From assembly GCA_964508905.1 (NCBI GenBank), contig CAZDVO010000004.1, forward strand, positions 11,956 to 75,955: a DNA stretch of 64,000 bases, written 5' to 3'. The notes under the pieces are model-generated. The model did not search any database. It was not told the DNA's origin and was given only the letters and a program-made list of their open reading frames with translations. Each line of letters opens with the position of its first letter. Position 1 is the stretch's first letter. Position numbers and translations under genes: made by a program. Positions 3,999 through 50,415 of this stretch are shown one piece after another. Origin of the DNA: an uncultured bacterium. Lineage in GTDB: Bacteria; Omnitrophota; Omnitrophia; Omnitrophales; Aquincolibacteriaceae.

Positions 3999-4006
3999 GA
4001 AAACAT

Positions 4007-4080
4007 GGGCCCGACAGGATTCGAACCTGTGACCCCTACCATGTCAAGGTAGTGCTCTAACCAACTGAGCTACGAGCCCA
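4007..4080 (-). tRNA. tRNA-Val (anticodon GAC)
   Basis: Reverse complement reads GGGCTCGTAGCTCAGTTGGTTAGAGCACTACCTTGACATGGTAGGGGTCACAGGTTCGAATCCTGTCGGGCCCA. It has a 7-bp acceptor stem, D-loop AGCTCAGTTGGTTAGAGC, anticodon loop CTTGACATG (GAC) and T-arm GGTTCGAATCC. CCA is not encoded. Confidence 0.85.
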
Positions 4081-33554: not shown

Positions 33555-33557
33555 AGA

Positions 33558-34166
33558 TCATTCCTGAAGCTGTTTGAATATGGCGCCTATCCACGCGGGG
33601 GCATATCGGAAATCACGCATCAGTTGCTTTTTTTCATCCCCTTTCAACCGGGCTTTCAATCTCCTGATCACTTTATCGTCAACGTGGTTCATCCCGAGAT
33701 ATCGCAGAGCCTGAATCACCAGCCCGCTGACACATCCGGCTGTGGCCATATTCTTGGGGGTTGTTCTTTTCAATACAACCTGCTGATTCTTAACCCGCAC
33801 AATCCTGTTCGCGCCGTCGGTTAGAAAAATAATTTTCGCAGGTACCTGCTCGGTCAACCCCAGCAGATTGGCGGCATAGGCCCCGGACGGTTGAATTTTC
33901 AAGTTATCTCTTCCGGCCAATGCTTGAGCTATCCGCTCATAATTCGCCGGAAGATCGCCCAATGTCGGATGTTTCTCAGGATAATCATAGAGACCCCGTG
34001 CCAAACGACGAATGGTCCCGGATCTTACCAGCCGACCCAATGCTTGATCGATGGCTGCACGATTTCCGAGATCAAGAAAATAGCTTGGAGTAAATACCCG
34101 CCCTCTATTTTTGTCGCTAATCCTATTGAGTACTTTTCTCTCAATACTCTGTGCCATATATGCCAC
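33558..34166 (-). CDS. AbiEi-family antitoxin / transcriptional regulator
   Basis: 202 aa with an N-terminal wHTH-like segment 'AIDQALGRLVRSGTIRRLARGLY'; immediately upstream of and co-oriented with AbiEii (3-nt spacing). Confidence 0.7.
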   Translation of the reverse strand: MAYMAQSIERKVLNRISDKNRGRVFTPSYFLDLGNRAAIDQALGRLVRSGTIRRLARGLYDYPEKHPTLGDLPANYERIAQALAGRDNLKIQPSGAYAANLLGLTEQVPAKIIFLTDGANRIVRVKNQQVVLKRTTPKNMATAGCVSGLVIQALRYLGMNHVDDKVIRRLKARLKGDEKKQLMRDFRYAPAWIGAIFKQLQE

Positions 34167-36154: not shown

Positions 36155-36172
36155 TTTGCCTTCCCCTGCCAC

Positions 36173-36395: not shown

Positions 36396-39300
36396 TTACG
36401 CGGCAATAGCAACAATGAAGTTGTTATCGTAGGTTCGCTGTAGAGCGTCCAGAAGGCTTTCTTCCACGGTCCAGAAACCGCCCTCTTGTCTTACCTCCGG
36501 CATGCGGATGTCTTCCCCTCCTGAAATGGCCCAAAGAAGCGCCATTGCGAGCGAGCCGCTCTTGTCACTATTCATTTTGAAAAATGACACTCGCTTACGC
36601 AGGCTACCGATCGACGTCCGCGAAGGCAGGACTTGTTTTGATAAATGAACGGTGGGGACATGAAATCTTGAAAAAACGTTTACTGCTTGATCAAGATTAC
36701 GCTCCGTTCTCGTAACGCGTTCAAGCTTAAGGAGCGCTGCCAGCTCTTCATCATGAACTTGCCCGTTTTCGTTATAAACAATGATGCGCGTTTCCGATCT
36801 TGAAAGCGCCACGAACAGATATTCCTGCTTCTGCGCTTCCGACAAACTCCCCCAATCCTCCGCATCCAAAAATACCGTCACCGGTTGCGTATTTCGACGA
36901 ACATTCTGAATGATTTGATCGCTTGGACCGGTGCTCACTCCGGGGATTGTCTCCATGCGCGTCTCGCTCCGCTCCCTAGGAACCCTGTTAGGGGAGCGAT
37001 TCGAAGGCACACGTTTTGGAGACCCGTTAAAACCGATCGCAACAGATTCTATGGCGGATTCGTGCTGTCCCGGAGAAGTTCTCAACGCGCGAGCTTTAGA
37101 GCGAGTTTCCCGGGCAGCTGATGCTGCAGGAATATTCCGGAGCTGTTCGGCTTCGCGGTCGGGATACTGCGCTAGAAATTCGTCACGCCACTTAATCACG
37201 TCATGCTCAGTAGGCGTCCAAAGACTCCGATACCAAGTCTTATCCTCCGGATAGTAATCCCGATGCAGGGGGTGAACTTTTTTGCCGGACAATAAAAATT
37301 GGACGCGCCTCACAAGAACCTGGACCAGCGCATAAAGCCGGTAGATCAAAGCCTCCACGCCCCTAGCCTGGCGCTTCAGATTTTTCGGTAAATAAGAGTC
37401 GTCCTTCGCGACAAGAAGCTTCCACTGTTTTTTTTCCGGCAAATACGCCACGACGTTGATACCGACATTCTGGGAGAAATCCGCAAAACCTCGCACCGCC
37501 GTATATTTTTTGACGGAAATTTGTCCAAAGGCCATCAATAGCGCAAGGATGGATCCGCCATGCGCTCCAATAGCTACGGTTTTTCCCTTAATTGAAGGGC
37601 TGTTTAATAAATCCTGAGAGAATTCCCGAAGGTCGCCCATCATTCCGGCCAATGAATCCAACTGCAAGGTGGTAACGGCTTCTGGGTATCGTTCGAAAAA
37701 ATTTTCTGGGTCAAAAATCACTTTGGCCATTTTGCCCGGAACACCTGCGACAGGGAATATACTGGTTTCAGCCAAACGAGAATCGACCGGCATGACACCC
37801 TGGCGCCCGCGACGCTTCCATAAGGGATACAGGGTTTGGTATGCCCTTTCCGAATCGCTGGATACAAAAATATCGAACGGAATTTTTGCGAGAAATTTAT
37901 CCAGGGCCTGGGCCTGTTTCTTTCCGCGAAAAGTTCCGGGGGAGAAACCATAACGTGTTTGCGTGACCTTCGTCAAATTTGAAATCGACTCTTGATGACG
38001 GATCGCATAGACCACAACCGCGTCAGGATGTGCTTCCCTCCAACCCGAATGCCAAAAATCCAGAACACTTCCATATTCCGGCGTCAGAAACGCCTTTTGT
38101 TCGGGGGTTAACTCACGATGAGGTTCCAGAGAAGTTGCCAAATCGCGCATTTCGGATCGGGGTTTTACTGCCGGCTCTTGCCCAGCAACGTCAGGCGTAT
38201 CCGCCGCCGCGCGGTCGGGCTCGGCCCCCTTCATCGCCGCTCCATCGCCCGGCGGGTTGTCTGTAGCTGTTTTTGCCTTGATAATTTTGAAAGCCGCGTC
38301 GACTTCTTCTAACAATAACGGCATCTCCTTCCCATTGAACATATCGACTATCTCACGACTAGTTATTTCTCTGCCCCTGTTTTGTTTAGTCACTTCAAGC
38401 CATTGATTAAAAATAAAGAGATCTTTGTCCGGGGAATTTATTGATAACTGTTTTATCAAAACAGGTAGCCCGATAATAAAGCCACGGTATCTATCACTGT
38501 CAAAACGAGGGTTACCTCGAATGATCTTTCTGTTTTCCGGAAGTTTCCCCATAATAGAATCTTGAACAAGTTCCGGCAAAATCATTAAAATATCCCCATT
38601 CCGAATACCAGACAACGCATCGCGAATGGCCATTGCTGAGGCGCCTTCATAATTCATGCCTCTTAAAAGCGTCTCTTGAAATAAATTTTCCTTTCTCGAA
38701 CTCTCCGCCGCGTTAACCTCTTCGGGAAGCAATTCGCTATCATGCGGCTCGCGCTCACTAAATAAAACATTGATAAAAACATTGTTAGTTTCTAAGAAGG
38801 CCTTATGCTTCCTCAAAAGTTCGGAAAACTTTAAAAGAGTATCAGGTTCTGGTTTCCCGTCTTTTATCTTCGCCCTATACTGATGCGTTCGCTCCCATAA
38901 TTCATAATCAGGCGCGAAATAATGCCTATGATCTGATCCTCCCAGATTGAAAGCGTAGAACCTTCCATTTTTTCTGCCCACGTTCAACTTAATCAGATCA
39001 ATAAAATCTGACTCTCCATCCGTAGAAGTCCCCTTTCCTATATCGCTGTATTCAAAGATATCCTTCACATAGCCCGTCATAAGAGCGATAAACTCAGCCA
39101 CAATATCATGCCTCTCTTCAATGGTCCTTCCGATGGCACCCTTCCTGTCATCCGCCCCCTGAACGCGAATAACCCCTATATCGGCCTTGCTTTGTACCAT
39201 GGCACGAAACATAGCCTCAATATGCCCGAAATGCAATGGATTGGCGGCTATAGAATAATAAAGCATTTTTGCATCCCCTGAATCCTCATCCGAACTAGTC

Positions 39301-42300
39301 AGTACGGGCGAACGATCATTGATCCGCACTCGAACATGCCGAGTTTCGCCATTGAGCCGCAACACAGCCATATTCCAAATTTGTAATTTTAAACGTCGGG
39401 CGATCAGCTCTGCTTGGGCTCTTTGAAATGAACTACGCGGCTGCCTTATCATGTCTGAGATCGCCTGATTAAGGCCAACAAAATCCCCTCCTATGAGTGC
39501 CTTTAATTTTTCCGGTCGGTAAATGCTCCTAGCATATTCAAACTCCTGATAAACCTTTTCATCCGCTGACCCACGATATAAAGCATGAATAAATGCCCTC
39601 GTGAGAGAAGCTTTGTCTTTCGATCGTTTCAAGCGTTTGAGGAACGAGGTTTCCATGTAGATCTTGCTGACGCCATTTTCCCTTACCCTTGCGATTCCGA
39701 AAGTAATTTTATCAGTCTCGATCAAATAGACCTTACTGTCTTCCTTAATTCCTAAAAAATCCTTTGCCACATTCAATTCTCTGTCAAATTCCACGGTCGG
39801 CCTTTCGGATCTTCTGGCCGCAGCCAGATTTTTCCTGAGCTCAAACAAGGACATTCTTTCATAGTAGCCATGATCAGCTAAGCGAACATTACGGTTTGCC
39901 AGCATTTCCAGAACATCCCGCATTAGACTGCGGCTATAAAACTCAATATTATCTGATCGATAAACAACCTCATGCTGATCTTCATTAAGGCGAATTGTCA
40001 GAATCGAGCTCTTCCCTGACGGGCCAATGAAATAGATCTCCCATCGATCACCCTGTCTTTGGGCCTTCTCAAAGCGCAGATCAACCCGTTTAGCGATCTC
40101 TTGCCCCAGCAATGCGGGAAATTCATCTTTGTTCTGAAGAACAACAAGATGGTCAAAAGAATCTAGATCAAAAGAAGAAATTTTCTTTTCAAGAGCACCC
40201 GGCGCCGGATCTCCTTTGTCAGACCCTTTGATAACTTTCACTACAGGCGCAAATTCAGCTCCTAGCTTGGAGAATTTCTCGTCTATTCCATCCGCTATCG
40301 CTTCGGATATCTTTCTATAAACCCATGGATCAGTTTCATCTAAATAGCCGGCCACTTCGAAGCCGCGCTCATGAAGACCGTACGATGTCGCCCCATCATC
40401 CACCGTTGTTACCAAAACCCCGTTGGGCAGTATCATTAAATATTTATAGGTCTTTTCTTCCTGCAGGGTCTTGTTCATTCGAAGGACCTGATCCGCAGTA
40501 AAAGAGCTATCTTCGCGAGCAAGGTACGCACGCACTCTTTCCCGCATCAGTTGAACAGCCTCATCATGAAGAAGGGCAAATTCATCGTAGGTTATCCCCA
40601 GAGATTTCTTGAGTTCATTCGGGAAACTTTTGAGCGGCTGAAATATATTGCATTTCCATATGGGAGGCCGTATCGACGGGTAGTGTTGTTTTGTTTTATT
40701 AAAAACATCCAAAATAATACCTTCAACATAAGGCAGGAGATCCGTCTTGACCTTATCAATGTTTTCTCTCGTAACCGTGGTGGTTATCACGATTTCTATA
40801 TCTTTATCCCTCTGAGCAGCGATTGTCTTGATGCTGGCTATTACTTCCGGCCATAACAAAGGGATTTCCCCTCTGAATGAATGCGGGTCGACCGTATCCA
40901 AAGAAAAACAAAACTGATCGACATAACTGATAAATTTTTCTAAAGGAACAAGATGCGTGCTCTTCCGGTCTTCTTTATAAAGCTCAATAAAGATCTCGCC
41001 CCCGACCTTTTTAAATTGCAGGCCGTTCGTGTTAACAAAAACCTTCATTCCTTTAGATTTTACATAAGCAATAATTTCATCAAACCGAGGGACTATAGTC
41101 GGTTCGCCGCCGCTAAAGGATATGCCTTCAATGCCTGTCTCAGCCAAAAGGTTAATGGTATGCAATATTTCTTTAAAAGACGGCTCCTTTGTCCCGTATT
41201 TAGCGATCTCTTTCTGTGAATAAAAATTTCTTGCCCAGCATTGCCGGCATTTTAATTGACACCGCAGCGAAGGAAGAAAGTCTATAAGTGAAGCGAATGT
41301 CCCTTCCCGGAAAGGGACTGCTCCCTCGGGGATACTCTTGTGTTGCCGGGCTAATAATACAGCTTGAGGCTTTGCTGCTTCCCGCATCTCGGAGCGGGCG
41401 GTTGTATTTTCCGGATTCTCTTTTTCCGCCGCAACTTTTGCTTTCAGGCGTCTGACCCGCTCGTCTATTCTCTCGATCTCCGCATCGTAGTACTCCCGGA
41501 CCTTATGATGCCTGGCCGCTTCTTTCTGGGATCTCAAGATATTTTTAACACCTTCCATGTCGATCTCATAATCCCGGAGCGCGTGCTCCCGGTCGTCCCT
41601 CCACGCCGCCTCGACCTTTCGATCGATCTTTTCTTCCTCCCCTCGTCTTTCAAAAGTTCGTTTCAGATACTCATGGTCAGCATCATGCGAAAGAGCCACC
41701 ACCTCTTCCGTGCTCAGGTCGAAGATCAATTCAGGGTTGTTACCAAAAACTTCAGGATGGGCTTTTGCGGTCTCGATCATGAGAGGATGCATCTTTTTCT
41801 GATAGCGGGTAATCAGCTGATGGGCATCCTCCATGAAAGAAAATTGTTGGACGTTGAGGGAGACAATCTTCCTGAGCGTTGGATAGCTTCCCAGGATAGT
41901 CATGAATTTCTCCTGATTTTTTTCTTCCTTAGCTTTCTCACCTCGGAGGTACTGTATCGTTTGGGATATTTCATCATCCAGCGCCTCCATGCTGACCGAA
42001 GGCTTCTCGCCGGCATTCGACATCCTGATCCTCGTAAAAAGTCGCAACGCGAGAAAAAGTTTCAGATCCAATATTCGGATCTTTTCACGAATGGTTTTTT
42101 CCGACTTAAGTTTCCAGACATCAACGGGTTCCCCATTCTTATCGCAAAGTCTTTCGATCAGCCGCAAAAGCTGGGGGGCCGCAATCGTTTCCGCTAAGTC
42201 CGAATCGGAAGCAAGGTTTGCTTGAAACTCATGCAGAAATGACACTTCATCATCACCTTTCCGGATATCTTCATCAGAAGCTTTGTAGTTATGCATATAA

Positions 42301-45300
42301 TCCGCCAGCGCCTGATAAACATCTCCCGTCCTCCGGGCGCGGGCATCTCTGACCCTTGTTTCGATGGCGCCAAGCGCTCCTTCTTCAAAAAGTTTCATGA
42401 CAGCCGCATCTTCCCGGATCATCTCCTCAATGGCGGCTACTTCTTTTACCTTATCCCAATGGGTCAACTTTTTCATCCAATGCTGTTCTGTTTCAGGCGT
42501 TAACTGAAGCGCCGCTCTCTCCAAACCGGCACGACTCATTGACAATTCGAATGCGTTAAAAAACCGCGCCTGCGGATACCAGAATTTATCCTGAAAAGTC
42601 GCGTGAAATGGTCGCGCAATGTGCATCCAAGCCAGCAATTCCACTAACCATGCCGTAGCCTGTTGCATCTGGCCACCACTTAAAAGCCCGCTGTCGGGAA
42701 GCCCACTAAAGAAGGCGTCTGCCTCCATGAACCGCTCAACACGCTTCTTGAGGACCGAATCGTAATCAACCAATTCCCGCCGATACAGCGGATTCTGAAG
42801 TCCGCTAGGTTCATTAATAAGCAACGAGTAAATGATCCTGTCCTTAAATTTTCGAGGCATGGTTTTGAATTCGTTTGTTTTGAATAAATTATTGAGCATT
42901 TCGGCGTATTTTTCAAAAGCCCGGTAATAATAATCCAGTTCAAAATAACCAAACTCTGTCTTGGGGCGCCCCCTCCACTCGCCTTCAAAATCCGGCATGT
43001 AGTTCTCTTTACCACCCTCCCTATAGAACCCTTCGAAATCTCCGTCGCTAAGCCAGACATCCCTCGGCTTAGGCGCGGGCTTAGCCAAAAGCTCCGCCGC
43101 TTGTTTCCACATTTTAAGTTCAATGCGAACTGTTTTGACCTTAACCGCGGGAGGCATTCCGTCATCCCGATAGTAGATGGTCCTTGTCCCGGAATCGAGT
43201 ACGACGGACTGATCGTCAAATTTCTTCAGGTCTTCGACCGCATTTTTAGAACCGACAACACATGCCTTATCCCGCTCACGAGCCGTTACCGCCGCATGAC
43301 TGGTCGTATTTCCGTTCTCCGTGATAACTCCCGCCATTCTGAAAAAAGCATTGTCCCAGCTGTTATCCGTCTCCTGGGTCACGAGAATATCTCCGGCCTT
43401 GATCTTCCGCGCGATTCTTTGGCTTTCGGCACGCTTCTGATTCTCTGGCAGATCCATACGAACCGGCCTTACTCTCAAAACACCGATCGCGACGCTCGGG
43501 AAACCGACAACAGCATCTCCAGGTAAAGTCATTTTTTTTACGGTGCTATCCATATCGCTCTCATCCACTGTCTTGATCTCAATAAAGCCAGCCTTGCTAA
43601 TGGTCGTTTCAGGCCGTGTCTGGACAACATGGATGACCCCCGATTTATCTTGCGCGAATTCAATATCCACGTTGGCGACATCCTTCATGGAGTTATATTT
43701 ACTCCGAATCCTCTGGGATATCTTCGCCAAACGCATAACAGCTTCCATCTCCAGAGAAGGCATCATTTGTTCATGCGGATCCGTGATCTTAACTCTCACA
43801 GTGCCATGCTCTCCCGTTATGATCTTCTCCGTCTTTGGCTGAGGCTGCTCCTCAAGAATGGTTTGCGCGTCAGGACTAATTGTCCACTCATCCGCCAAAC
43901 CAGACCCTGACACCACGCCTTCACCCAGTCCGGGCTTGGCATTGATCCTGAAAGCAGGTCGACCGGTCGTGGTATCCACGGAAAAAACATTGCCAGCCGA
44001 CTTAGCATCCACCATTTTTAATATCACAACCGGCATCATGGGAGTTTCTGTCATCTGATTCAAGATCCTGTAATTCACGAAACCACTATTAAAAAGACTG
44101 GCCCACACCTGAATAACAGCTCTGCTAACCTGCTTCGTATTATTCCTAGCCAGGACGCTATCTGCTTTTCCTGCACAAGCTGCCTTTGAGGAATCTTCAA
44201 CGCTAGCCGAACTCCTAACGGCAACACTGACCTCGGTCGCATCGCCTTGAAGGGATCCCATCATTTTCGAGATATCTTCCAAGAGTGGTTTGGGCAATCT
44301 GACCAACCACCGGATCCCAGTTCGGATCATCCAAGCCTCTATTTGAATTTCTCCTTGGAGAAACAAATCCAGGAACCAAAAGCGGGCTCCCGCAATAAGC
44401 TTTCTCCAGGCGGACAGTTCATTTTCCATCGCCTTGGCTTCCTTTGCCTTGCGATCCCTCAGAACTATCAGCTTCAAAGATAAAATTCGTAATCGTTCGA
44501 TCAGTGCTCCCAAAAACGGATTCCTTAAAACAACTTTTTTAAATACCTCAGCGCGAAGGATATAACCTTCCGGGACCCTCACAGGGTCAGAGACATTGTC
44601 CCGAGCTTCTTCAGCGGCAAGCATTCGCAGATAATGAAGATTGGCTCCCTTCCCTCCGGATACCGATTTATTGCCGCTGTCAGGATGGTCCAGATGGACC
44701 AAAGACTGACCAATCTCGAGGGGGAGATGTTCTGATACTGAAATATTCCGAACAACTTGCCTGGAAACAGTTTCGTAAATAGCATCGCTAATACTGGGTT
44801 GTAAATTCTCTTTTGCAGAAGATTCCGCTGAGAAAGGAACTGAAAGATCGCTGGCCAAAGCTGCGCCTTCTTCTCGTAGCTTGTAAAAAACATCCCACCA
44901 CAGCCTGAATCCATAGGCATCCGCGTTCAGGTTCTTCAATTCGTCCTCGGTCATAGGCATTTTTTCCCTATCGGCGAGTTTTCTCGGCTCTCTGAACTTG
45001 TCTGCCACCTTTTGATCTTCTAAAGCATTCAGGAAATAAGTGAATAAAGTGCCGGTTTCGAAGATTTCGGCCGGAGGTAATAATGGTACTGATGTTGCCT
45101 GTGCGGCTTCTTGTGCCAAACTGGCAAGCGCCTCACGTAGAGCTGTATCATTTTTTGTAACATAAATGACAAGCGCATGTTTTACAGGATCGTAATCCAG
45201 AACCAGCTCTTTACTGACAAGATCCTTTTGCTTTTCATAAAAAGAGCTCAGCTTACCGGCCTCATTCGTGTTCAAAGCCTGAAAGGTATAACTTTGAATG

Positions 45301-48300
45301 TAGCGGCTTTGTTCACCGGGTTTCCCGATCCTCTTCAGTCGTGACGCATCAGAACCGATCTCGAGATAATCTTTAAGAACCTGCTGAGCAGAATTTGTAA
45401 TGTTTGTGTCCGGTGCGATTTCACTACCTAAAGCTACTGAAAATTTGGAGGGAAATAAATCGCTGTAAGGCCCTTGTTTTTTAACTAAAACCCGTCCCTT
45501 GGTATCAAAGACCATCACTTGGACGCTTTGTCTTAAACCTTTTGCTTGTTGCCGCCTTCCATGGAGATTGATCAAATGACGCAATTGTGAGATCGCAAAA
45601 TAGGTCGAAAGGAAGTGAGGGTCGGGTTCCCCGACAATGTTCCCGTTATTCAAGATTGTGATGTCTTTTTCAATGACATTGAGCAAACCTTCCGCATCCT
45701 CATAACGGGCTTTAGCAACCATCTCCCTGACCGCGACGACTCTGTCGGGAAGTCCGGCCAGCAGACAACTGATAGCATGCGCCTGCCTCAGCATCGCAAG
45801 GACCTCGGCCGACCCGAAATAAACCGCCGTCAAATCCTCCGCATACTTCGCATGATCCGTGGAAAACATATCCGCAACGGCATCAATGGTTAGGAATTTC
45901 TTGGCATCAGAATCGATCAGCTTCAAAACACCTGAAGTGAGTGAATTCACTGAATTTTCTGCTGTTCTCCGCTGAGCTTCGTGAGATTTTACCTTCGTTT
46001 TAACCGCTTTCGCCTCGGCCTCGGTCAGAGGATAGACCAAAAGCGTGCTCTTTTCGTAAGTCACCGCGGTTAACAAAGATGGTATATGAGTTTCACTACC
46101 GATCGCCAGGACTAACCTGTCTTGATCCGCAGCAAGTTCAGCGCTGTCCTTTAGAATATAAACAGTGAGGGAGTGTTTCGTTTCTTCATCAAAATCCAGG
46201 GTGATACCCTGAGCTCCAGCCGATACTTTGTGTATTTCAAAAGCTTTCTTAAGAGATTCGGCTTCGCTCTGGTTAAAAGCCGGAAAAACATAGCTTCGCA
46301 TATAGTGCAAATGGGTATCTTCGCCGCCGACCCGCAGGATTCGCTTTGGATCCGCCTCGATTCCTATCTCCTGCCGGATTGAGGCCTTCACTTTTTCTTC
46401 AACCGCCGCGACATCAGCTCCCGCAGATGGTTTGGCATTGGCGGACACGGAATATTTGGAAGCAAAGAGTTGTTTATAAGGACCGCGCTTCTGGAGAAGA
46501 ATCTTGCCTTGGGGATCGACCGCCAGAATCTGAACACTTTGTTTCTGCGCAACATTATCGGAAATCACTTTTTTCTTAGCGACTTTCTCAAGCAACAGTT
46601 TTGCCGAAAAGTAATTCGCCAAGAGATATTTATCGACCTTGCTATAAGACCATTTCTGGACTAGCTTCCCGAGCGCTTCAACAAGAGGCTCCAACTTCCT
46701 CGCCGCCGCGGTGAAATCCATTTTCGAAAGCAGTTCTCGCGCCTCAACCAGCCCTTCATAAAGCTCTAAGGTATTCCGATCCTCTTGGGTGCTTTCAGCT
46801 TCCCGCATCTCGGAGCGAAGTTGGGCATTTCTATCCACTGTGTGCGCAGGTTGCATTGCTTGCTGAAGATCAACAAGACGACGCTCGATCAGTTGAGGGT
46901 CAGAGTTACCCGCGTCAACAGAAGAAGCAATCGCATGAAGTTTTGCACGCACAAATTCTTCGTTGCCGGTAGCGGCTAAGTAGGGGTAGCCCGGTGCTCG
47001 GTTGGCACGGGTAACAAGGAACGGGGCTTCGAAGGGGTGCAGTCCATCAGACATCAATCGTTTGTAATAATCCTGGTGACGCTTATCAATAGCCGTGATC
47101 TTGGGAGAAATGACTACATAAGAAAAACCCTGCTGCCTAAACATGTCCTTGATAGCGCTGGCGTGAAATCCCCCAAAAACCAGTATGGCGGCTTCCTCCT
47201 TGCCCTCCTGAAAGGCTCTGATGTGCTGATCGATCGCCCCATCCCGCTTCTGCGCCACATTGTAGAACCGAACCGCTTCCTTGATGTGCCGCTCCCACTC
47301 TTTGGAAAGAACTAGCGACCGGCGAGTCAGAGACACAATGAAATCCACTAATTTCTGCGTCTCAAGTTTTTCAAGCGCGTCTTTGGCCGCTTCATATTCC
47401 GATTGCGTGAGTTGGATCTGGTTGAGCCGTTTGAGCAAGCTCAAACCCTGATAATAATCAAAGATCTTTTTGTCCCGGTCATTTTGAAGGAAGGTCTTTG
47501 AAAGTCCCTGCTCCAGACGGCTCGCCTCTTCAAAAATAACGCGGGAATCCAGAGCGTTCAATTGCCCGATCAGCTTTTGGTCCCGGGTGGTTTCAGCGGC
47601 AAGAAGGATCGTAAGGGCGGGATATTCCCGGAAAAAGGAATCCGGATCCGCGACATTCTTCCGGTATAACGCTCGCAATGCTTTGAGATAATCGAGAAGG
47701 GGCCGTTCCCCTTTTGAGTATCCTTCCCGGAAGCGAAGCCAGGATTTCAGTTCCTTCGGAAAATACCGGTTGGCGAGGATCAGGATGTGCTTAAGAAGCT
47801 CATCAAGATCCGCTTCAGTGTCCTTCCGCTTCCTTGAAGAATCCCGATAAGCCTCGATATTTTTTGAATAGAGATCAAGATTTTCAACCCCGATCAGCTC
47901 AAAATCCTGTTCCCGGTTAATGTGCGCGTATTCCGCGCCTCCGATCCTCAATTTGTCCAAAAGAAAATAAGAGACCTTTTGTTTAATCTCGGGATCTTTG
48001 ATGAATCCAAAAAATTTTTCCGTGGGAACAGGGCCCTCATAGCCTTCCTCAAAAACGGTCTTGATCCCCTTTTCTTTTACGAAATTACCGATAAGCTTCG
48101 CGATGTTCTCCTGGGCTTCAAGAGAGTCGTGAGCATCCTGAATAAAAAGAATGGTCTTGCCGGAAGCTCCTTGAAAAGATTCTTCGATTTTTCCAAGTCC
48201 GGGAGGGACCGCGATCATGCCATTAAGGACTTGAGCGGTCGAAACGGAGACCGGATCACCTCCCGGAACATTGGAATTTTGCGCCTGCCGACCGGCGGGC

Positions 48301-48422
48301 ATAGCAAAACTGGTTGGTGTGGGAATAAGAATCTGCGTAGCGACAAAGGAAAGGACGATGAAAGACGCAATGGTCTTTAGAGAAAGTGAGGGCCCAGATG
48401 TTGCTTTTCGGAACAACTTCAT
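36396..48422 (-). CDS. Giant 4008-aa multidomain protein with signal peptide/TM, PEP-utilizing ATP-grasp plus phospho-His module, tandem Nudix-like repeats, radical-SAM core, HxGH nucleotidyltransferase and histidine-phosphatase domains
   Basis: A single uninterrupted 12,027-nt ORF. N-terminal hydrophobic segment 'TIASFIVLSFVATQILIP'. 'SVSGGKGANLHYL' (aa ~1253) and 'GNTTSHAAVTARERDKACVVG' (aa ~1704) are the PPDK/PEP-synthase ATP-grasp and mobile-His motifs. 'CQLKCRQC...SFSGGEPT' (aa ~2388-2441) is the radical-SAM CxxxCxxC plus GGE motif. 'ANPLHFGHIEAM' (aa ~3060) is a (H/T)xGH nucleotidyltransferase motif. 'YAIRHQES...GAHGGSIL' (aa ~3473-3625) are the RHG/HGG histidine-phosphatase motifs. Two ~130-aa internal repeats start 'SVQILAVDPQGKILLQKRGPYKQLFASKYSV' and 'SVQVMVFDTKGRVLVKKQGPYSDLFPSKFSV'. 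Confidence 0.85.
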   Translation of the reverse strand: MKLFRKATSGPSLSLKTIASFIVLSFVATQILIPTPTSFAMPAGRQAQNSNVPGGDPVSVSTAQVLNGMIAVPPGLGKIEESFQGASGKTILFIQDAHDSLEAQENIAKLIGNFVKEKGIKTVFEEGYEGPVPTEKFFGFIKDPEIKQKVSYFLLDKLRIGGAEYAHINREQDFELIGVENLDLYSKNIEAYRDSSRKRKDTEADLDELLKHILILANRYFPKELKSWLRFREGYSKGERPLLDYLKALRALYRKNVADPDSFFREYPALTILLAAETTRDQKLIGQLNALDSRVIFEEASRLEQGLSKTFLQNDRDKKIFDYYQGLSLLKRLNQIQLTQSEYEAAKDALEKLETQKLVDFIVSLTRRSLVLSKEWERHIKEAVRFYNVAQKRDGAIDQHIRAFQEGKEEAAILVFGGFHASAIKDMFRQQGFSYVVISPKITAIDKRHQDYYKRLMSDGLHPFEAPFLVTRANRAPGYPYLAATGNEEFVRAKLHAIASSVDAGNSDPQLIERRLVDLQQAMQPAHTVDRNAQLRSEMREAESTQEDRNTLELYEGLVEARELLSKMDFTAAARKLEPLVEALGKLVQKWSYSKVDKYLLANYFSAKLLLEKVAKKKVISDNVAQKQSVQILAVDPQGKILLQKRGPYKQLFASKYSVSANAKPSAGADVAAVEEKVKASIRQEIGIEADPKRILRVGGEDTHLHYMRSYVFPAFNQSEAESLKKAFEIHKVSAGAQGITLDFDEETKHSLTVYILKDSAELAADQDRLVLAIGSETHIPSLLTAVTYEKSTLLVYPLTEAEAKAVKTKVKSHEAQRRTAENSVNSLTSGVLKLIDSDAKKFLTIDAVADMFSTDHAKYAEDLTAVYFGSAEVLAMLRQAHAISCLLAGLPDRVVAVREMVAKARYEDAEGLLNVIEKDITILNNGNIVGEPDPHFLSTYFAISQLRHLINLHGRRQQAKGLRQSVQVMVFDTKGRVLVKKQGPYSDLFPSKFSVALGSEIAPDTNITNSAQQVLKDYLEIGSDASRLKRIGKPGEQSRYIQSYTFQALNTNEAGKLSSFYEKQKDLVSKELVLDYDPVKHALVIYVTKNDTALREALASLAQEAAQATSVPLLPPAEIFETGTLFTYFLNALEDQKVADKFREPRKLADREKMPMTEDELKNLNADAYGFRLWWDVFYKLREEGAALASDLSVPFSAESSAKENLQPSISDAIYETVSRQVVRNISVSEHLPLEIGQSLVHLDHPDSGNKSVSGGKGANLHYLRMLAAEEARDNVSDPVRVPEGYILRAEVFKKVVLRNPFLGALIERLRILSLKLIVLRDRKAKEAKAMENELSAWRKLIAGARFWFLDLFLQGEIQIEAWMIRTGIRWLVRLPKPLLEDISKMMGSLQGDATEVSVAVRSSASVEDSSKAACAGKADSVLARNNTKQVSRAVIQVWASLFNSGFVNYRILNQMTETPMMPVVILKMVDAKSAGNVFSVDTTTGRPAFRINAKPGLGEGVVSGSGLADEWTISPDAQTILEEQPQPKTEKIITGEHGTVRVKITDPHEQMMPSLEMEAVMRLAKISQRIRSKYNSMKDVANVDIEFAQDKSGVIHVVQTRPETTISKAGFIEIKTVDESDMDSTVKKMTLPGDAVVGFPSVAIGVLRVRPVRMDLPENQKRAESQRIARKIKAGDILVTQETDNSWDNAFFRMAGVITENGNTTSHAAVTARERDKACVVGSKNAVEDLKKFDDQSVVLDSGTRTIYYRDDGMPPAVKVKTVRIELKMWKQAAELLAKPAPKPRDVWLSDGDFEGFYREGGKENYMPDFEGEWRGRPKTEFGYFELDYYYRAFEKYAEMLNNLFKTNEFKTMPRKFKDRIIYSLLINEPSGLQNPLYRRELVDYDSVLKKRVERFMEADAFFSGLPDSGLLSGGQMQQATAWLVELLAWMHIARPFHATFQDKFWYPQARFFNAFELSMSRAGLERAALQLTPETEQHWMKKLTHWDKVKEVAAIEEMIREDAAVMKLFEEGALGAIETRVRDARARRTGDVYQALADYMHNYKASDEDIRKGDDEVSFLHEFQANLASDSDLAETIAAPQLLRLIERLCDKNGEPVDVWKLKSEKTIREKIRILDLKLFLALRLFTRIRMSNAGEKPSVSMEALDDEISQTIQYLRGEKAKEEKNQEKFMTILGSYPTLRKIVSLNVQQFSFMEDAHQLITRYQKKMHPLMIETAKAHPEVFGNNPELIFDLSTEEVVALSHDADHEYLKRTFERRGEEEKIDRKVEAAWRDDREHALRDYEIDMEGVKNILRSQKEAARHHKVREYYDAEIERIDERVRRLKAKVAAEKENPENTTARSEMREAAKPQAVLLARQHKSIPEGAVPFREGTFASLIDFLPSLRCQLKCRQCWARNFYSQKEIAKYGTKEPSFKEILHTINLLAETGIEGISFSGGEPTIVPRFDEIIAYVKSKGMKVFVNTNGLQFKKVGGEIFIELYKEDRKSTHLVPLEKFISYVDQFCFSLDTVDPHSFRGEIPLLWPEVIASIKTIAAQRDKDIEIVITTTVTRENIDKVKTDLLPYVEGIILDVFNKTKQHYPSIRPPIWKCNIFQPLKSFPNELKKSLGITYDEFALLHDEAVQLMRERVRAYLAREDSSFTADQVLRMNKTLQEEKTYKYLMILPNGVLVTTVDDGATSYGLHERGFEVAGYLDETDPWVYRKISEAIADGIDEKFSKLGAEFAPVVKVIKGSDKGDPAPGALEKKISSFDLDSFDHLVVLQNKDEFPALLGQEIAKRVDLRFEKAQRQGDRWEIYFIGPSGKSSILTIRLNEDQHEVVYRSDNIEFYSRSLMRDVLEMLANRNVRLADHGYYERMSLFELRKNLAAARRSERPTVEFDRELNVAKDFLGIKEDSKVYLIETDKITFGIARVRENGVSKIYMETSFLKRLKRSKDKASLTRAFIHALYRGSADEKVYQEFEYARSIYRPEKLKALIGGDFVGLNQAISDMIRQPRSSFQRAQAELIARRLKLQIWNMAVLRLNGETRHVRVRINDRSPVLTSSDEDSGDAKMLYYSIAANPLHFGHIEAMFRAMVQSKADIGVIRVQGADDRKGAIGRTIEERHDIVAEFIALMTGYVKDIFEYSDIGKGTSTDGESDFIDLIKLNVGRKNGRFYAFNLGGSDHRHYFAPDYELWERTHQYRAKIKDGKPEPDTLLKFSELLRKHKAFLETNNVFINVLFSEREPHDSELLPEEVNAAESSRKENLFQETLLRGMNYEGASAMAIRDALSGIRNGDILMILPELVQDSIMGKLPENRKIIRGNPRFDSDRYRGFIIGLPVLIKQLSINSPDKDLFIFNQWLEVTKQNRGREITSREIVDMFNGKEMPLLLEEVDAAFKIIKAKTATDNPPGDGAAMKGAEPDRAAADTPDVAGQEPAVKPRSEMRDLATSLEPHRELTPEQKAFLTPEYGSVLDFWHSGWREAHPDAVVVYAIRHQESISNLTKVTQTRYGFSPGTFRGKKQAQALDKFLAKIPFDIFVSSDSERAYQTLYPLWKRRGRQGVMPVDSRLAETSIFPVAGVPGKMAKVIFDPENFFERYPEAVTTLQLDSLAGMMGDLREFSQDLLNSPSIKGKTVAIGAHGGSILALLMAFGQISVKKYTAVRGFADFSQNVGINVVAYLPEKKQWKLLVAKDDSYLPKNLKRQARGVEALIYRLYALVQVLVRRVQFLLSGKKVHPLHRDYYPEDKTWYRSLWTPTEHDVIKWRDEFLAQYPDREAEQLRNIPAASAARETRSKARALRTSPGQHESAIESVAIGFNGSPKRVPSNRSPNRVPRERSETRMETIPGVSTGPSDQIIQNVRRNTQPVTVFLDAEDWGSLSEAQKQEYLFVALSRSETRIIVYNENGQVHDEELAALLKLERVTRTERNLDQAVNVFSRFHVPTVHLSKQVLPSRTSIGSLRKRVSFFKMNSDKSGSLAMALLWAISGGEDIRMPEVRQEGGFWTVEESLLDALQRTYDNNFIVAIAA

Positions 48423-48615: not shown

Positions 48616-50415
48616 TTAAAAGCCTACTTGCGGCTTTTTCGCTCTACAAAAGTACTTTTCCAAGCCTCGAAACAGGCGTTGTCCATAAAAGAACCATTTG
48701 TCATCCGAAGGTTTTAATAAACACGACTGGCTTTTCGATGCCCTTTTCGTCTGTTTTTCTTTTCCTTGCTGACAAGTTTCCCACCTCCTTTCCGACAAGA
48801 CAACATTCCCCCTGGCTGCTAACGCTTTGTCATACATGCCCTGGAAGGGTTCGTAAAGCTCAAAACTTGCTATCTGCTGGTGATCGATCACGAGCTTCTT
48901 AAACACAAGCTTAAGCAGCTCTTTCCGCAAGGCCGGGTGCAGATTTTCCCGGAAAGAATCGGACGACCTTACAACATCCGCAGCCCTTTTAACATAGTCC
49001 TTCGACGCCTCCTTTTCGACAAGCTGAAGCTCCATCCGTTCGATCTTGATGCGGATCTCTCCTTCTTCGTTACGAAGCTTCTGGGCTTTGCCTTCAAAAA
49101 TGTCCTTGCCGATATTTCCGTCCAGATAGACATCCGTCAGCTTCCCGAGCTTCGCCGAACACCCCTGGAGTTCTTTCTTCAGCCTCTCAAGATCATGAGA
49201 AACTTCGCCCACCGCCTGTTCCCGGTAATGGTCCGTGATCAGGTTCCGCATTCTTTCTTTGCTGACCTCTCCGGAAGTGAAAAGGACTTCCAAAATCTCG
49301 GACACCTCGGCCTCCGGGATCTCGGCCCGCACGTCGTTATTCCCGCAATGAATGTTGCGTGTAGCGCGACCCGAGCAACGGTAATACGGCCTTTTCTCGT
49401 TCGTCTTGTGATTTTTCAAATTGGAGACGCCATTGTAGCGATAGCCGCATTTCGCGCAGGTCAGAATTCCCGACAGAACATAATCCCTTACCCGTTTGCG
49501 GTGAAAGCTGCCTCTCCGGTTCCGGTCGAGGATGTTTTGCGCGCGGGAGAAGACTTCCAACTCAATGACAGGCTGATGCAACCCGTCCGCCTCAATGACC
49601 TTGGAAGGATCATTTTTGACATAGCGGCAACCCCTCAGCGTCTTCTGCTTCCGGTCATAATGGTACGCGTTCCAGACCAGCTTGCCGGTGTAAAGCTTAT
49701 TGCGGAGGATCTTGCGAACTAGCGAGCTGTTAAAAGTCCCGCCGGAGCGGCTCAGGATCTTCTTCTGAAAAAAATCCCCGGCAATCTTCTGACAAGGCTC
49801 TCCCGCGATATATCTCTGGAATATCTCCCGCACAAGTTGCGCTTCTTCTTCAACGACAAGTAGCAGTTTGGCCGTCTTGTCATAAGAGTAGCCAAACGGG
49901 GCGTACCGCGAACCCTGCCAATGACCAGCCTGAACACCCCGGACCATTCCTGGGAACACCCGTTCAATGATCCGGTTGCGTTCAAACTCCGCAAAACTCC
50001 CTAATTGCTGAAGCATTAGCTTCCCCGAGCTTGTGGTCGTATCGTAAGGCTCGGTCGCTGATTTGAACTGGATCCCGAGTACGTCAAACTCATCCAGAAT
50101 ATTCAGAATATCCCGCAATCTACGGCTAAAACGGTCCAGCTTATAGACCAGTATCAGATCGAACTTCTTCGCCCTGGCATCTTCTAGCAGTTGATTCATA
50201 GCGGGCCGGTCAAGCGAATAGCCGCTGTAACCGTCATCCATGTAGATCGCGCCTTTGCCGTCAGCAAAACAGATCTCGAACCCTTCTCTTTTGGCGAAGT
50301 CCACAAGGTAGTCCTTCTGGACACCCAGCGAATACCCCTCGCGCGCCTGATCTTCGGTGCTGACCCGGATATAAAGCGCCGCTTTGATACGTCTTTTTTC
50401 TTCTGTCTTTTCCAT
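48616..50415 (-). CDS. Large serine recombinase (resolvase/invertase N-domain plus recombinase plus Zn-ribbon)
   Basis: 'AALYIRVSTEDQAREGYSLGVQ' holds the catalytic Ser region; 'YKLDRFSRR'; a C-terminal Cys cluster 'CAKCGYRYN...CSGR...HCG'; 599 aa. Confidence 0.9.
   Translation of the reverse strand: MEKTEEKRRIKAALYIRVSTEDQAREGYSLGVQKDYLVDFAKREGFEICFADGKGAIYMDDGYSGYSLDRPAMNQLLEDARAKKFDLILVYKLDRFSRRLRDILNILDEFDVLGIQFKSATEPYDTTTSSGKLMLQQLGSFAEFERNRIIERVFPGMVRGVQAGHWQGSRYAPFGYSYDKTAKLLLVVEEEAQLVREIFQRYIAGEPCQKIAGDFFQKKILSRSGGTFNSSLVRKILRNKLYTGKLVWNAYHYDRKQKTLRGCRYVKNDPSKVIEADGLHQPVIELEVFSRAQNILDRNRRGSFHRKRVRDYVLSGILTCAKCGYRYNGVSNLKNHKTNEKRPYYRCSGRATRNIHCGNNDVRAEIPEAEVSEILEVLFTSGEVSKERMRNLITDHYREQAVGEVSHDLERLKKELQGCSAKLGKLTDVYLDGNIGKDIFEGKAQKLRNEEGEIRIKIERMELQLVEKEASKDYVKRAADVVRSSDSFRENLHPALRKELLKLVFKKLVIDHQQIASFELYEPFQGMYDKALAARGNVVLSERRWETCQQGKEKQTKRASKSQSCLLKPSDDKWFFYGQRLFRGLEKYFCRAKKPQVGF

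What the first reader, a model, noticed from the sequence alone, without database searches (positions are those of the whole stretch)
43143..44705. PEP-utilizing-enzyme-like kinase module (ATP-grasp plus mobile phospho-His domain) embedded in the giant protein
Nucleotide-binding motifs 'GGKGANL' and 'RSSASVEDSSKAACAG', followed ~450 aa later by 'GNTTSHAAVTARERDKACVVG', reproduce the rifampin-phosphotransferase / PEP-synthase logic. The ATP-grasp pyrophosphorylates a swivelling His, which then phosphorylates a substrate. No PEP/pyruvate TIM barrel follows it. The phosphoryl acceptor is therefore probably a different small molecule or a macromolecule, perhaps acted on by the downstream nucleotidyltransferase and phosphatase domains.
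Basis: partly seen in the sequence, partly recalled or inferred. Interest (0 to 1): 0.6.

Follow-up and report, generated by a model that had tools for sequence, protein, structure and literature searches.

The report
Rearranged rifampin-kinase-like dikinase in giant protein
The flagged stretch is a real, catalytically intact ATP-driven "swivelling histidine" kinase, but it is only the middle of a larger conserved unit whose own all-helical tail domain resembles the drug-binding domain of rifampin phosphotransferase, so it is a rearranged relative of that small-molecule kinase family and not a pyruvate/PEP enzyme.

Summary
Window 43143-44705 (minus strand) is aa 1240-1760 of a 4008-aa ORF (36396-48422). 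It holds a PPDK_N ATP-grasp (Pfam E 1.3e-50) and a PEP-utilizers swivel domain (E 1.9e-16). All ATP/Mg ligands and the phospho-carrier His1709 are present.

There is no PEP/pyruvate TIM barrel. Residues 1790-2342 instead form a separate, conserved, almost all-helical domain (AlphaFold pLDDT 89). Its only credible structural match is Listeria rifampin phosphotransferase (Foldseek top six hits, prob 0.97-0.99, but E only 0.015-0.1). Two collinear hhalign matches to the RIF-binding domain score above shuffled controls.

This C-domain is rare: 74 clusters among 1.84 billion representatives. In 47 of the 50 hits longer than 600 aa it directly follows ATP-grasp plus swivel, and often a degenerate Nudix-like domain. 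It occurs both as stand-alone 960-1570-aa proteins and inside giant Omnitrophota proteins.

The functional unit is therefore aa 541-2342, bounded by RSEMR linker motifs. My reading is a domain-permuted RPH-type dikinase: ATP + X-OH + H2O gives AMP + Pi + X-phosphate. The acceptor X is unknown.

Coupling to the downstream radical-SAM, "nucleotidyltransferase" and phosphatase modules is not supported. This is a new variant of a known kind, of moderate interest.

The parts
36396..48422 (-). Giant ORF, 4008 aa: signal/anchor, conserved N-cap, three enzyme modules and a conserved C-cap
   Evidence: Single ORF. An identical protein, P0001, is in NCBI. There are 119 relatives of 2-7 kaa, and the ones that carry a source name are mostly labelled Candidatus Omnitrophota.
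41397..46802 (-). Module 1 (aa 541-2342): the complete dikinase cassette, made of Nudix-like x2, ATP-grasp, swivel His and RIF-BD-like C-domain
   Evidence: Bounded by RSEMR at aa 536 and aa 2343. The same domain order is found in P0002 and P0121, and in stand-alone proteins of 960-1570 aa.
45663..46622 (-). Nudix-like domain A (aa ~601-920), with a degenerate Nudix box
   Evidence: phmmer links it to relatives whose copy hits Pfam NUDIX at E ~1e-11. The Nudix box itself is not conserved.
44703..45602 (-). Nudix-like domain B (aa ~941-1240), an internal duplicate of domain A
   Evidence: Domains A and B hit each other (E 1e-25). There is a weak PDB hit to IDI2/YfcD.
43548..44702 (-). ATP-grasp nucleotide-binding domain (aa 1241-1625). 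Key residues: K1258, R1403, S1422, D1586/E1588, Q1601/R1603
   Evidence: Pfam PPDK_N E 1.3e-50. Residue alignment to RPH K22/R117/T136. D/E/Q/R columns are invariant in the family alignment A2.
43143..43442 (-). Swivel phosphohistidine domain (aa 1661-1760), with catalytic His1709 in TTSHAAV
   Evidence: Pfam PEP-utilizers E 1.9e-16. The His aligns to RPH His825 and is invariant in 48 of 48 family members.
41397..43055 (-). C-domain (aa 1790-2342): all-helical putative acceptor-binding domain, RIF-BD-like. Invariant residues: R1894, E2051, H2201, Q2208, E2240, R2259. The motif FMEDAH (aa 2196-2201) aligns to RPH R666-E667-x-x-K670
   Evidence: AF2 model with pLDDT 89.3 and pTM 0.88. Foldseek top six hits are all RPH. 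hhalign scores 28.5 plus a collinear 22.8, against a null maximum of 22.5. Only 74 clusters among 1.84e9 representatives.
41382..41396 (-). RSEMR linker (aa 2343-2347) that closes the cassette
   Evidence: Motif enrichment of 878 observed against 12.5 expected in the family. Stand-alone homologues end at this point.
46803..46817 (-). RSEMR linker (aa 536-540) between the N-cap and the cassette
38160..41381 (-). Module 2 (aa 2348-3421): radical SAM core (CX3CX2C at aa 2388-2395) plus unannotated sequence holding an HFGH motif. Not part of the cassette.
   Evidence: Pfam Radical_SAM E 3e-11. No Pfam or PDB support for a nucleotidyltransferase. Not co-conserved with the cassette.
36972..38144 (-). 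Module 3 (aa 3427-3817): histidine phosphatase (His_Phos_1). Not part of the cassette.
   Evidence: Pfam E 1.4e-13. In relatives P0003, P0037 and P0060 it occurs without the cassette.

Best explanation
Window 43143-44705 encodes the catalytic core of a dikinase: an ATP-grasp domain and a swivelling phospho-carrier domain with His1709. This core is the middle of a conserved four-part cassette at aa 541-2342:
1. Degenerate Nudix-like domain(s).
2. ATP-grasp.
3. Swivel His.
4. A ~550-aa all-helical C-domain that stands where PEP synthase has its pyruvate-binding TIM barrel.

The C-domain is most probably a homologue of the rifampin-binding domain of rifampin phosphotransferase. That makes the cassette a domain-permuted RPH-type dikinase.

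Proposed mechanism:
1. His1709 attacks the beta-phosphate of ATP in the ATP-grasp site. AMP leaves and the gamma-phosphate goes to water. This step is inferred from the family's established chemistry; all ligand residues are shown to be present.
2. The swivel domain carries His~P to the C-domain and docks near the conserved E2198/H2201 helix start, which corresponds to RPH R666-E667/K670 (inferred).
3. The phosphate is passed to a hydroxyl of a substrate bound in the C-domain (inferred).

Net reaction: ATP + X-OH + H2O gives AMP + Pi + X-O-phosphate. X is unknown. Weak context hints point to a small molecule, possibly a sugar, polyol or nucleotide-related compound.

The cassette is an autonomous module. 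In this protein it is strung between RSEMR linkers with unrelated enzyme modules, as is typical of a family of modular giant proteins of Omnitrophota.
For: Kinase core:
- Pfam, NCBIfam and PDB sequence hits.
- K1258, R1403, S1422, D1586/E1588 and Q1601/R1603 are present and aligned to RPH/PEPS ligands.
- The His is invariant in 48 of 48 family members.

No TIM barrel:
- No PF02896 hit.
- The AF2 model of aa 1790-2345 is all-alpha with four short strands, pLDDT 89.3 and pTM 0.88.

The C-domain belongs to the kinase:
- An exhaustive HMM search finds only 74 clusters.
- In 47 of the 50 hits longer than 600 aa it follows ATP-grasp plus swivel. About half also carry the Nudix-like domain. Stand-alone 960-1570-aa proteins are included.
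- Ten genome loci in six phyla show the same order.

RIF-BD likeness:
- The Foldseek PDB top six hits are all Listeria RPH, with prob 0.97-0.99 and TMq 0.30-0.34 over ~500 columns. The next hits have prob <=0.16.
- hhalign of the 39-sequence C-domain profile against three RPH-like proteins gives two collinear hits inside the RIF-BD. C-domain 367-454 matches RPH 627-726 (score 28.5), and 78-250 matches 422-563 (score 22.8). Sixty column-shuffle controls reach at most 22.5.
- The first hit places the family motif R-E-D-G-H on RPH R666-E667-Y-P-K670. That dyad is essential for the second phosphotransfer (PMC4844700).

Modularity:
- The linker motif is 70-fold enriched and sits at module borders.
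- The downstream modules are not co-conserved with the cassette.
Against: - In the giant and its closest relatives the residue aligned to the essential RPH Arg666 is Met2197. Some family members lose the Glu instead. The active-site equivalence is therefore uncertain.
- The C-domain also occurs after a deaminase-like domain without ATP-grasp or swivel, in P0010/P0011. It may therefore have a role not tied to phosphotransfer.
- No conserved operon partner identifies the substrate.
- The protein has an N-terminal signal/anchor, which sits oddly with ATP-dependent chemistry if the bulk is exported.
Confidence: 0.65

Rival explanations
1. It is a PEP synthase or pyruvate-phosphate dikinase domain that interconverts pyruvate and PEP. 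This is how PPDK_N domains in Omnitrophota giant proteins have been read in the literature.
For: The best NCBIfam model is PEP synthase, E 7e-60, with contiguous ATP-grasp-then-swivel order as in PpsA. [quoted passage not shown]
Against: The match stops at model position 463 of 798. There is no PEP-utilizers_C hit at any threshold. The following 550 aa fold as a confident all-helical domain, not a beta8/alpha8 barrel.
Confidence: 0.03
2. The kinase phosphorylates an intermediate that is then processed by the downstream radical-SAM, nucleotidyltransferase-like and histidine-phosphatase parts of the same polypeptide, as a fused biosynthetic assembly line.
For: All parts lie on one polypeptide. 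One stand-alone cassette, in the Planctomycetales locus L007, is also followed by a radical SAM/SPASM gene. The histidine phosphatase is real.
Against: The closest cassette homologue P0002 has HD and other modules instead, with no radical SAM or phosphatase. The phosphatase module recurs in relatives that lack the cassette. The L007 radical SAM shares only the generic core with the giant's (E 4e-4 over 100 aa). Modules are separated by a motif that marks shuffled units across 120 proteins. The nucleotidyltransferase assignment is unsupported.
Confidence: 0.1
3. The acceptor is a carbohydrate: an alpha-glucan, sugar or polyol. The cassette would then be a functional analogue of plant glucan-water dikinase, serving the sugar-metabolism theme of Omnitrophota giant proteins.
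For: In Saganbacteria locus L005 the stand-alone cassette is flanked on both sides by GT5 starch-synthase-like genes. Other contexts hold inositol-1-phosphate synthase plus a GT28, a sugar-type SBP_bac_1 and GT2s. GT5, PGM and ROK domains dominate the giant-protein catalogues.
Against: No carbohydrate-binding module was detected. The domain order differs from GWD. The contexts are heterogeneous, and three of about ten are mobile-element settings. The structural match is to a small-molecule-binding domain.
Confidence: 0.18
4. It is mobile-element cargo with a protective role: an RPH-like enzyme that inactivates an antibiotic or toxin, or a nucleotide-directed defence enzyme.
For: The giant gene lies in a low-GC island next to a large serine recombinase, an AbiE toxin-antitoxin pair and a DUF4062 protein with pAgo-associated hits. 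Stand-alone cassettes P0128 and P0126 sit beside integrases, a primase and the same type of serine recombinase. RPH itself is a resistance enzyme.
Against: There is no PADLOC hit for the cassette. There are no viral copies. Other contexts are ordinary chromosomal ones. Giant multi-enzyme proteins are a general Omnitrophota trait.
Confidence: 0.12

Closest known systems
Rifampin phosphotransferase (RPH-Lm; PDB 5FBS/5FBT/5FBU, 5HV1-3)
   Same: It has an ATP-grasp, a swivel His domain (His825, aligned to His1709) and a large non-barrel substrate-binding domain. RPH is the only credible structural match of the C-domain. A local profile match covers the catalytic R666-E667-K670 helix. By inference the dikinase chemistry is the same: ATP to AMP + Pi + phospho-substrate.
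   Different: - The domain order is permuted: ATP-grasp, swivel, binding domain here, against ATP-grasp, binding domain, swivel in RPH.
- Nudix-like domains are added at the N-terminus.
- The C-domain is larger (~550 aa against 428 aa), with no HMM-level sequence similarity.
- Arg666 is replaced by Met in this protein.
- The substrate is unknown.
- The cassette is embedded in a 4008-aa modular protein.
PEP synthase (PpsA; PDB 2OLS, 8A8E, 9DAE) and PPDK
   Same: It gives the best sequence model match. The ATP-grasp and swivel are contiguous, in the same order and with the same spacing.
   Different: The PEP/pyruvate TIM barrel, which defines the family's second substrate site, is absent.
Two-component phenolic dikinases HpeHI, CreHI and phenylphosphate synthase PpsAB
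   Same: They are RPH-type small-molecule dikinases in which the three domains are rearranged relative to RPH. This shows that the architecture tolerates re-partitioning (PMC12167813).
   Different: There the ATP-grasp is a separate subunit and the swivel stays fused to the binding domain. Here all three are on one chain in a new order. No sequence comparison with these proteins was made.
Alpha-glucan, water dikinase (GWD1)
   Same: It is a dikinase without a TIM barrel that phosphorylates a hydroxyl of a non-pyruvate acceptor. The GT5 neighbours of one homologue are suggestive.
   Different: GWD has N-terminal CBM45 domains and the order His domain then nucleotide-binding domain. Neither feature is seen here.
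Multi-enzyme giant proteins of Omnitrophota (West-Roberts 2023; Nielsen & Lui 2026, 'multi-enzyme metabolic clusters')
   Same: It is a signal/TM-bearing protein tiled with unrelated enzyme domains. PPDK_N, NUDIX and Radical_SAM are listed among the recurrent domains.
   Different: This one is only 4 kaa. The shared N-cap, C-cap and R[SA]E[LMV]R linkers seen here are not mentioned in the sections of those papers that I read, and no paper in the library contains the motif strings in this context.

Membership tests
PEP synthase / PPDK (PEP-utilizing dikinases) | N-terminal ATP-grasp nucleotide-binding domain (PPDK_N) | tested here: met
   Pfam E 1.3e-50, aa 1256-1611
PEP synthase / PPDK (PEP-utilizing dikinases) | Swivel phosphohistidine domain with catalytic His | tested here: met
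   Pfam E 1.9e-16. His1709 is aligned to the catalytic His and is invariant in 48 of 48 relatives.
PEP synthase / PPDK (PEP-utilizing dikinases) | C-terminal PEP/pyruvate-binding TIM barrel (PEP-utilizers_C) | tested here: not met
   No hit even at E<=5. The NCBIfam match ends at position 463 of 798. The AF2 model of the following domain is all-alpha.
RPH-type small-molecule dikinases | ATP-grasp with Lys22/Arg117/Thr136-type ATP ligands | tested here: met
   K1258, R1403 and S1422 are aligned to them (residues from PMC4844700).
RPH-type small-molecule dikinases | RIF-binding-domain fold as the second substrate site | tested here: inconclusive
RPH-type small-molecule dikinases | Domain order ATP-grasp, then binding domain, then C-terminal swivel | tested here: not met
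   The order here is ATP-grasp (aa 1241-1625), swivel (aa 1661-1760), C-domain (aa 1790-2342).
RPH-type small-molecule dikinases | Arg666-Glu667 dyad for the second phosphotransfer | tested here: inconclusive
   The family consensus R-E-D-G-H aligns to R-E-Y-P-K. In the giant it is M2197-E2198-D-A-H2201, so the Glu is kept and the Arg is lost.
RPH-type small-molecule dikinases | ATP-dependent phosphorylation of a small-molecule hydroxyl, giving AMP + Pi | not testable with these tools
   Needs biochemistry.
Alpha-glucan, water dikinase | N-terminal starch-binding CBM45 domains and a C-terminal nucleotide-binding domain | tested here: not met
   No CBM hit. The nucleotide-binding domain precedes the His domain.
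Nudix hydrolases (for the domains upstream of the kinase) | Nudix box GX5EX7REUXEEXGU | tested here: not met
   Both copies lack the RE...EE signature. The family keeps at most 'EExG'. Fold-level kinship is inferred from relatives that hit Pfam NUDIX.
Modular giant proteins of Omnitrophota (the N-cap family defined here) | Conserved N-terminal ~480-aa cap after a signal/anchor, with R[SA]E[LMV]R-separated enzyme modules | tested here: met
   All 119 relatives align to aa ~50-530. The motif occurs at aa 536, 2343, 3422 and 3818, and is 70-fold enriched in the family.

The most novel reading that the evidence does not exclude
The giant protein is an exported polyprotein. The 70-fold-enriched R[SA]E[LMV]R pentapeptides would be processing or recognition sites that release autonomous enzymes, or display them as beads on a string. 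The conserved N-cap would be the export or processing device. This permuted dikinase would then be one cargo enzyme that phosphorylates a metabolite or surface compound of a host or prey cell. That would be a new way for ultra-small episymbiotic bacteria to deploy whole sets of metabolic enzymes.
Probability: 0.12. Interest if true: 0.85.

Novelty: new variant of a known kind. Interest (0 to 1): 0.55.

Why it matters
1. It corrects a reading in the literature. PPDK_N domains in Omnitrophota giant proteins have been taken as pyruvate/PEP interconversion. At least this type lacks the pyruvate site and looks like a small-molecule dikinase.

2. It defines a rare, previously undescribed architecture of the RPH/PEPS superfamily. 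The parts are a Nudix-like domain, an ATP-grasp, a swivel and a RIF-BD-like domain, with the binding domain moved to the C-terminus. It occurs as stand-alone enzymes in at least six uncultured phyla. That widens the known plasticity of swivel-domain kinases and gives tractable ~1000-aa proteins for substrate discovery.

3. It shows that the giant protein is built from autonomous, shuffled modules separated by a specific pentapeptide. This makes the long-standing question of whether such giant proteins are processed directly testable by proteomics.

Tried and rejected
The exhaustive representative search was used instead.
- The first AF2 run with a 4-sequence alignment gave pLDDT 57, and its Foldseek output was noise. 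It was redone with 28 sequences.
- HMM searches of the C-domain profiles against PDB sequences gave only designed helical proteins or noise.
- The genome scan with patterns from the close subfamily found nothing, and the 12-sequence alignment was too diverse for pattern design. A 4-sequence alignment of the main subfamily worked.
- I considered that the radical SAM module is a viperin, given PADLOC and NCBIfam pVip hits. I rejected this because only the first ~85 residues, the generic CX3CX2C core, match.
- I considered a specific link between the cassette and a radical SAM partner, from L007. I rejected it because the similarity is only generic.
- I considered that the N-cap is a Tiki/ChaN-like protease. 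There is no Pfam or PDB sequence support, so it is left as an untested idea.
- No viral copies of the cassette or of the N-cap were found.
- The 'nucleotidyltransferase' has no Pfam or PDB support.
Full report
**1. Observation**

The window holds one uninterrupted minus-strand ORF at 36396-48422, coding for 4008 aa. The finding's coordinates, 43143-44705, correspond to aa 1240-1760.

The three quoted motifs are present in frame:
- GGKGANL at aa 1256-1262.
- RSSASVEDSSKAACAG at aa 1403-1418.
- GNTTSHAAVTARERDKACVVG at aa 1704-1724.

Profile and sequence searches confirm both domains:
- Pfam PPDK_N at aa 1256-1611, E 1.3e-50.
- Pfam PEP-utilizers at aa 1675-1744, E 1.9e-16.
- NCBIfam's best model is PEP synthase PRK06464, but only its positions 21-463 of 798 are matched.
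- Against PDB sequences the region matches Listeria rifampin phosphotransferase in two pieces (ATP-grasp 106-316 and swivel 736-850), and PEP synthases contiguously, at E 1e-27 to 3e-34.

**2. Catalytic integrity**

The residues that Stogios et al. showed to position ATP in RPH are Lys22, Arg117 and Thr136 (PMC4844700). They align to K1258, R1403 and S1422. The D-x-E and Q-x-R columns (D1586/E1588, Q1601/R1603) are invariant in a 21-sequence family alignment.

The phospho-carrier His (RPH His825) aligns to His1709. It is His in all 48 swivel domains of the family.

The giant's ATP-grasp has about 40 extra residues between GGKGANL and RSSAS relative to its closest relatives (147 aa against 102-109 aa). 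The meaning of this insertion is unknown.

**3. What follows the swivel domain**

No PEP-utilizers_C hit exists at any threshold. Residues ~1790-2342 are conserved in P0002 (38% identity over aa 899-2350), and also in P0010/P0011.

An exhaustive HMMER search of 1.84 billion cluster representatives, using a profile of this domain, found only 74 proteins. A phmmer domain map of those proteins gave these results:
- In 47 of the 50 hits longer than 600 aa the order is ATP-grasp, swivel, C-domain. The exceptions are P0010, P0011 and P0153.
- About half also have a Nudix-like domain in front.
- Many are stand-alone proteins of 960-1570 aa, for example P0128, P0130, P0141, P0126 and P0133.

With a 28-sequence alignment AlphaFold2 gives a confident model (pLDDT 89.3, pTM 0.88). 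It is almost entirely helical, with four short N-terminal strands. It is therefore not a TIM barrel.

**4. Identity of the C-domain**

Evidence for a relationship to the RPH RIF-binding domain:
- Foldseek of the confident model against the PDB returns the six Listeria RPH entries as ranks 1-6. They have prob 0.97-0.99, E 0.015-0.096 and TMq 0.30-0.34 over ~500 columns. Everything below has prob <=0.16.
- I fetched three RPH-architecture proteins, from Listeria, Bacillus and Rhodococcus.
- I ran hhalign of a 39-sequence C-domain profile against them. The best hit is C-domain 367-454 to RPH 627-726 (score 28.5, pairwise E 0.019).
- A second, collinear hit is C-domain 78-250 to RPH 422-563 (score 22.8). 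Both lie inside the RIF-binding domain (residues 327-754).
- Sixty column-shuffled controls reached at most 22.5, and a reversed control reached 16.8.
- The best hit aligns the family motif L-R-E-D-G-H-H, which is F-M-E-D-A-H-Q in the giant (aa 2196-2202), with RPH R666-E667-Y-P-K670. Those residues position His825~P and are essential for the second phosphotransfer.

Caveats:
- The E-values are marginal, and HMM-to-sequence searches of the PDB find nothing.
- The Arg is Met in the giant's subfamily, and the Glu is lost in some others.

I rate homology to the RIF-binding domain as probable (about 0.7), not proven.

**5. The upstream domains**

Residues ~601-920 and ~941-1240 are duplicates of each other. 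They are homologous to the N-terminal domain of stand-alone cassettes, and in several relatives that domain hits Pfam NUDIX (E 6e-7 to 2e-12).

The Nudix box is degenerate across the family and nearly gone in the giant. A ligand-binding or non-canonical role is more likely than a classical Nudix hydrolase. This is inference.

**6. The giant protein and its modules**

All 119 relatives found with the whole protein share only aa ~50-530 (40-70% identity). Thirty-three also share aa ~3830-4008. Between these caps the Pfam content is wildly different. The relatives that carry a source name are mostly labelled Candidatus Omnitrophota.

The pentapeptide R[SA]E[LMVIAT]R occurs 878 times in these 120 proteins, against 12.5 expected from shuffling, with a median spacing of 334 aa. 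In the giant it lies at aa 536, 2343, 3422 and 3818, exactly between the following parts:
- the N-cap;
- the dikinase cassette;
- the radical-SAM module;
- the histidine-phosphatase module;
- the C-cap.

Stand-alone cassette proteins end where the giant has '...TARSE'. The cassette is therefore an autonomous, shuffled module.

The downstream modules are not co-conserved with it. P0002 carries HD and other modules instead, and the phosphatase module recurs without the cassette in P0003, P0037 and P0060. The 'nucleotidyltransferase' rests on an HFGH motif at aa 3064-3067, with no Pfam or PDB support.

**7. Distribution and context**

A scan of GTDB species representatives found the C-domain in ten loci:
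- Omnitrophota (three loci);
- candidate division FCPU426;
- Saganbacteria;
- Elusimicrobia;
- Planctomycetota (three loci, Phycisphaerae included);
- a fragmented copy in Competibacteraceae.

No viral contigs carry it.

Neighbourhoods are heterogeneous:
- GT5 starch-synthase-like genes on both sides in Saganbacteria.
- A paralogue plus a radical SAM/SPASM gene in Planctomycetales. That radical SAM shares only generic similarity with the giant's.
- Inositol-1-phosphate synthase and a GT28.
- A sugar-type solute-binding protein.
- Integrases, a primase or a large serine recombinase.

In the window the giant gene lies in a lower-GC stretch (0.55 falling to about 0.47 from ~32 kb). Its neighbours there are a large serine recombinase, an AbiEi/AbiEii pair and a DUF4062/HATPase_c_4 protein. 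No conserved partner reveals the substrate.

**8. Mechanism proposed**

Shown:
- An intact ATP-grasp and a swivel His.
- A dedicated, conserved, non-barrel domain fused after them.

Inferred from established PEPS/PPDK/RPH chemistry:
1. His1709 takes the beta-phosphate of ATP. AMP is released and the gamma-phosphate goes to water.
2. The swivel domain then docks on the C-domain near E2198/H2201.
3. It phosphorylates a bound hydroxyl compound.

The acceptor is unknown. Carbohydrate or polyol candidates, and xenobiotic or nucleotide-related candidates, are each weakly suggested by context.

**9. Comparison and novelty**

- It works like RPH and its two-component relatives HpeHI, CreHI and PpsAB (PMC4844700, PMC12167813).
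- It is not a PEP synthase or PPDK, because the barrel is absent.
- It is not a canonical RPH, because the domain order is permuted, Nudix-like domains are added and the Arg of the dyad is not kept.
- It is not a GWD, because there are no CBMs and the domain order differs.

PPDK_N, NUDIX and Radical_SAM domains have been listed as recurrent in Omnitrophota giant proteins, and the PPDK_N domains were read as pyruvate/PEP interconversion. The multi-enzyme class of giant proteins is also described. The cassette architecture, its RIF-BD-like domain, the caps and the linker motif are not mentioned in the sections of those papers that I read.

Verdict: a new variant of a known kind, of moderate interest. 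The wider modular-polyprotein reading is the more novel but unproven possibility.

Noticed in passing
window 46803-46817, 41382-41396, 38145-38159, 36957-36971 (aa 536, 2343, 3422, 3818), and throughout relatives P0002-P0120: The pentapeptide R[SA]E[LMVIAT]R (RSEMR in this protein) sits exactly between enzyme modules. It occurs 878 times in 120 family proteins, against 12.5 expected, with a median spacing of 334 aa. It may be a processing or recognition site. No paper in the searchable library contains the motif strings in this context.
   Followed up: partly
window 46818-48422 (aa 1-535): A hydrophobic signal/anchor (aa ~17-40) is followed by a ~480-aa cap shared by all 119 relatives at 40-70% identity. 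Invariant motifs include QDAHDSLEAQ, FEEG.EG, GGAEYAHINR and GGFH. There is no Pfam or PDB sequence hit. My idea of a Tiki/ChaN-like hydrolase is untested.
   Followed up: partly
window 36399-36935 (aa 3830-4008): A conserved ~180-aa C-terminal cap (…QPVTVFLDAEDW…FWTVEESLLDALQRTYDNNF…AA) is shared by 33 of 119 relatives. No annotation was found for it.
   Followed up: no
window ~32000-62000; genes at 48616-50415, 34640-36172, 32535-34166, 31823-32515: The giant gene lies in a lower-GC stretch (about 0.47, against 0.55 to the left). Around it are a large serine recombinase, a DUF4062/HATPase_c_4/Fic-like_C protein with PADLOC pAgo-associated hits, an AbiEi/AbiEii toxin-antitoxin pair and a PRiA4_ORF3 protein. 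This looks like a genomic island.
   Followed up: partly
P0010 aa ~2110-3136 and P0011 aa ~4495-5521: The same C-domain follows a cytidine/dCMP-deaminase-like domain (HAE…PCxxC, with a long insert) inside one linker-delimited module. There is no ATP-grasp or swivel in that module. The C-domain may therefore work with other partners, or with a swivel domain supplied in trans.
   Followed up: no
P0014, P0022, P0039, P0068, P0082 (relatives): Other members of the giant family carry a second, PPDK-type ATP-grasp module (GNKGRNL / RS.P..MPG). At least P0014, P0022 and P0082 also have a swivel-like TH(E)A motif after it, seen by eye only. No TIM-barrel Pfam is listed for any of them. Barrel-less dikinase modules may be a recurrent theme.
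   Followed up: no
window 40824-41270 (aa 2385-2533): The radical SAM core (CQLKCRQC at aa 2388-2395) hits viperin models in NCBIfam and PADLOC. Only the first ~85 residues match, so this is generic core similarity, not evidence for a viperin.
   Followed up: yes
window 44217-44636 (aa 1263-1402): The ATP-grasp has about 40 extra residues between GGKGANL and RSSAS compared with its closest relatives and with RPH (147 aa, against 102-109 in the relatives and 95 in RPH). This is a hydrophobic/helical insertion of unknown role.
   Followed up: no
L017/L018 (P0128), L019 (P0126): Stand-alone cassette genes sit beside phage-type integrases and a DnaG-like primase. In L019 the neighbour is a large serine recombinase of the same type as the one next to the giant gene. 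This suggests that the cassette is often mobile-element cargo.
   Followed up: partly
L005 3914-11413 (Saganbacteria MAG): A stand-alone Nudix-like, ATP-grasp, swivel, C-domain gene is flanked on both sides by GT5 starch-synthase-like glycosyltransferase genes. This hints at a carbohydrate acceptor.
   Followed up: partly
L009 6397-9683 (Competibacteraceae MAG): The only proteobacterial copy of the cassette is broken into several overlapping ORFs. It is either a pseudogene or an assembly with frameshift errors.
   Followed up: no
L014/L015 downstream of P0002: The closest cassette-bearing relative (3326 aa) is immediately followed by another giant gene of 11,388 aa on the same strand.
   Followed up: no
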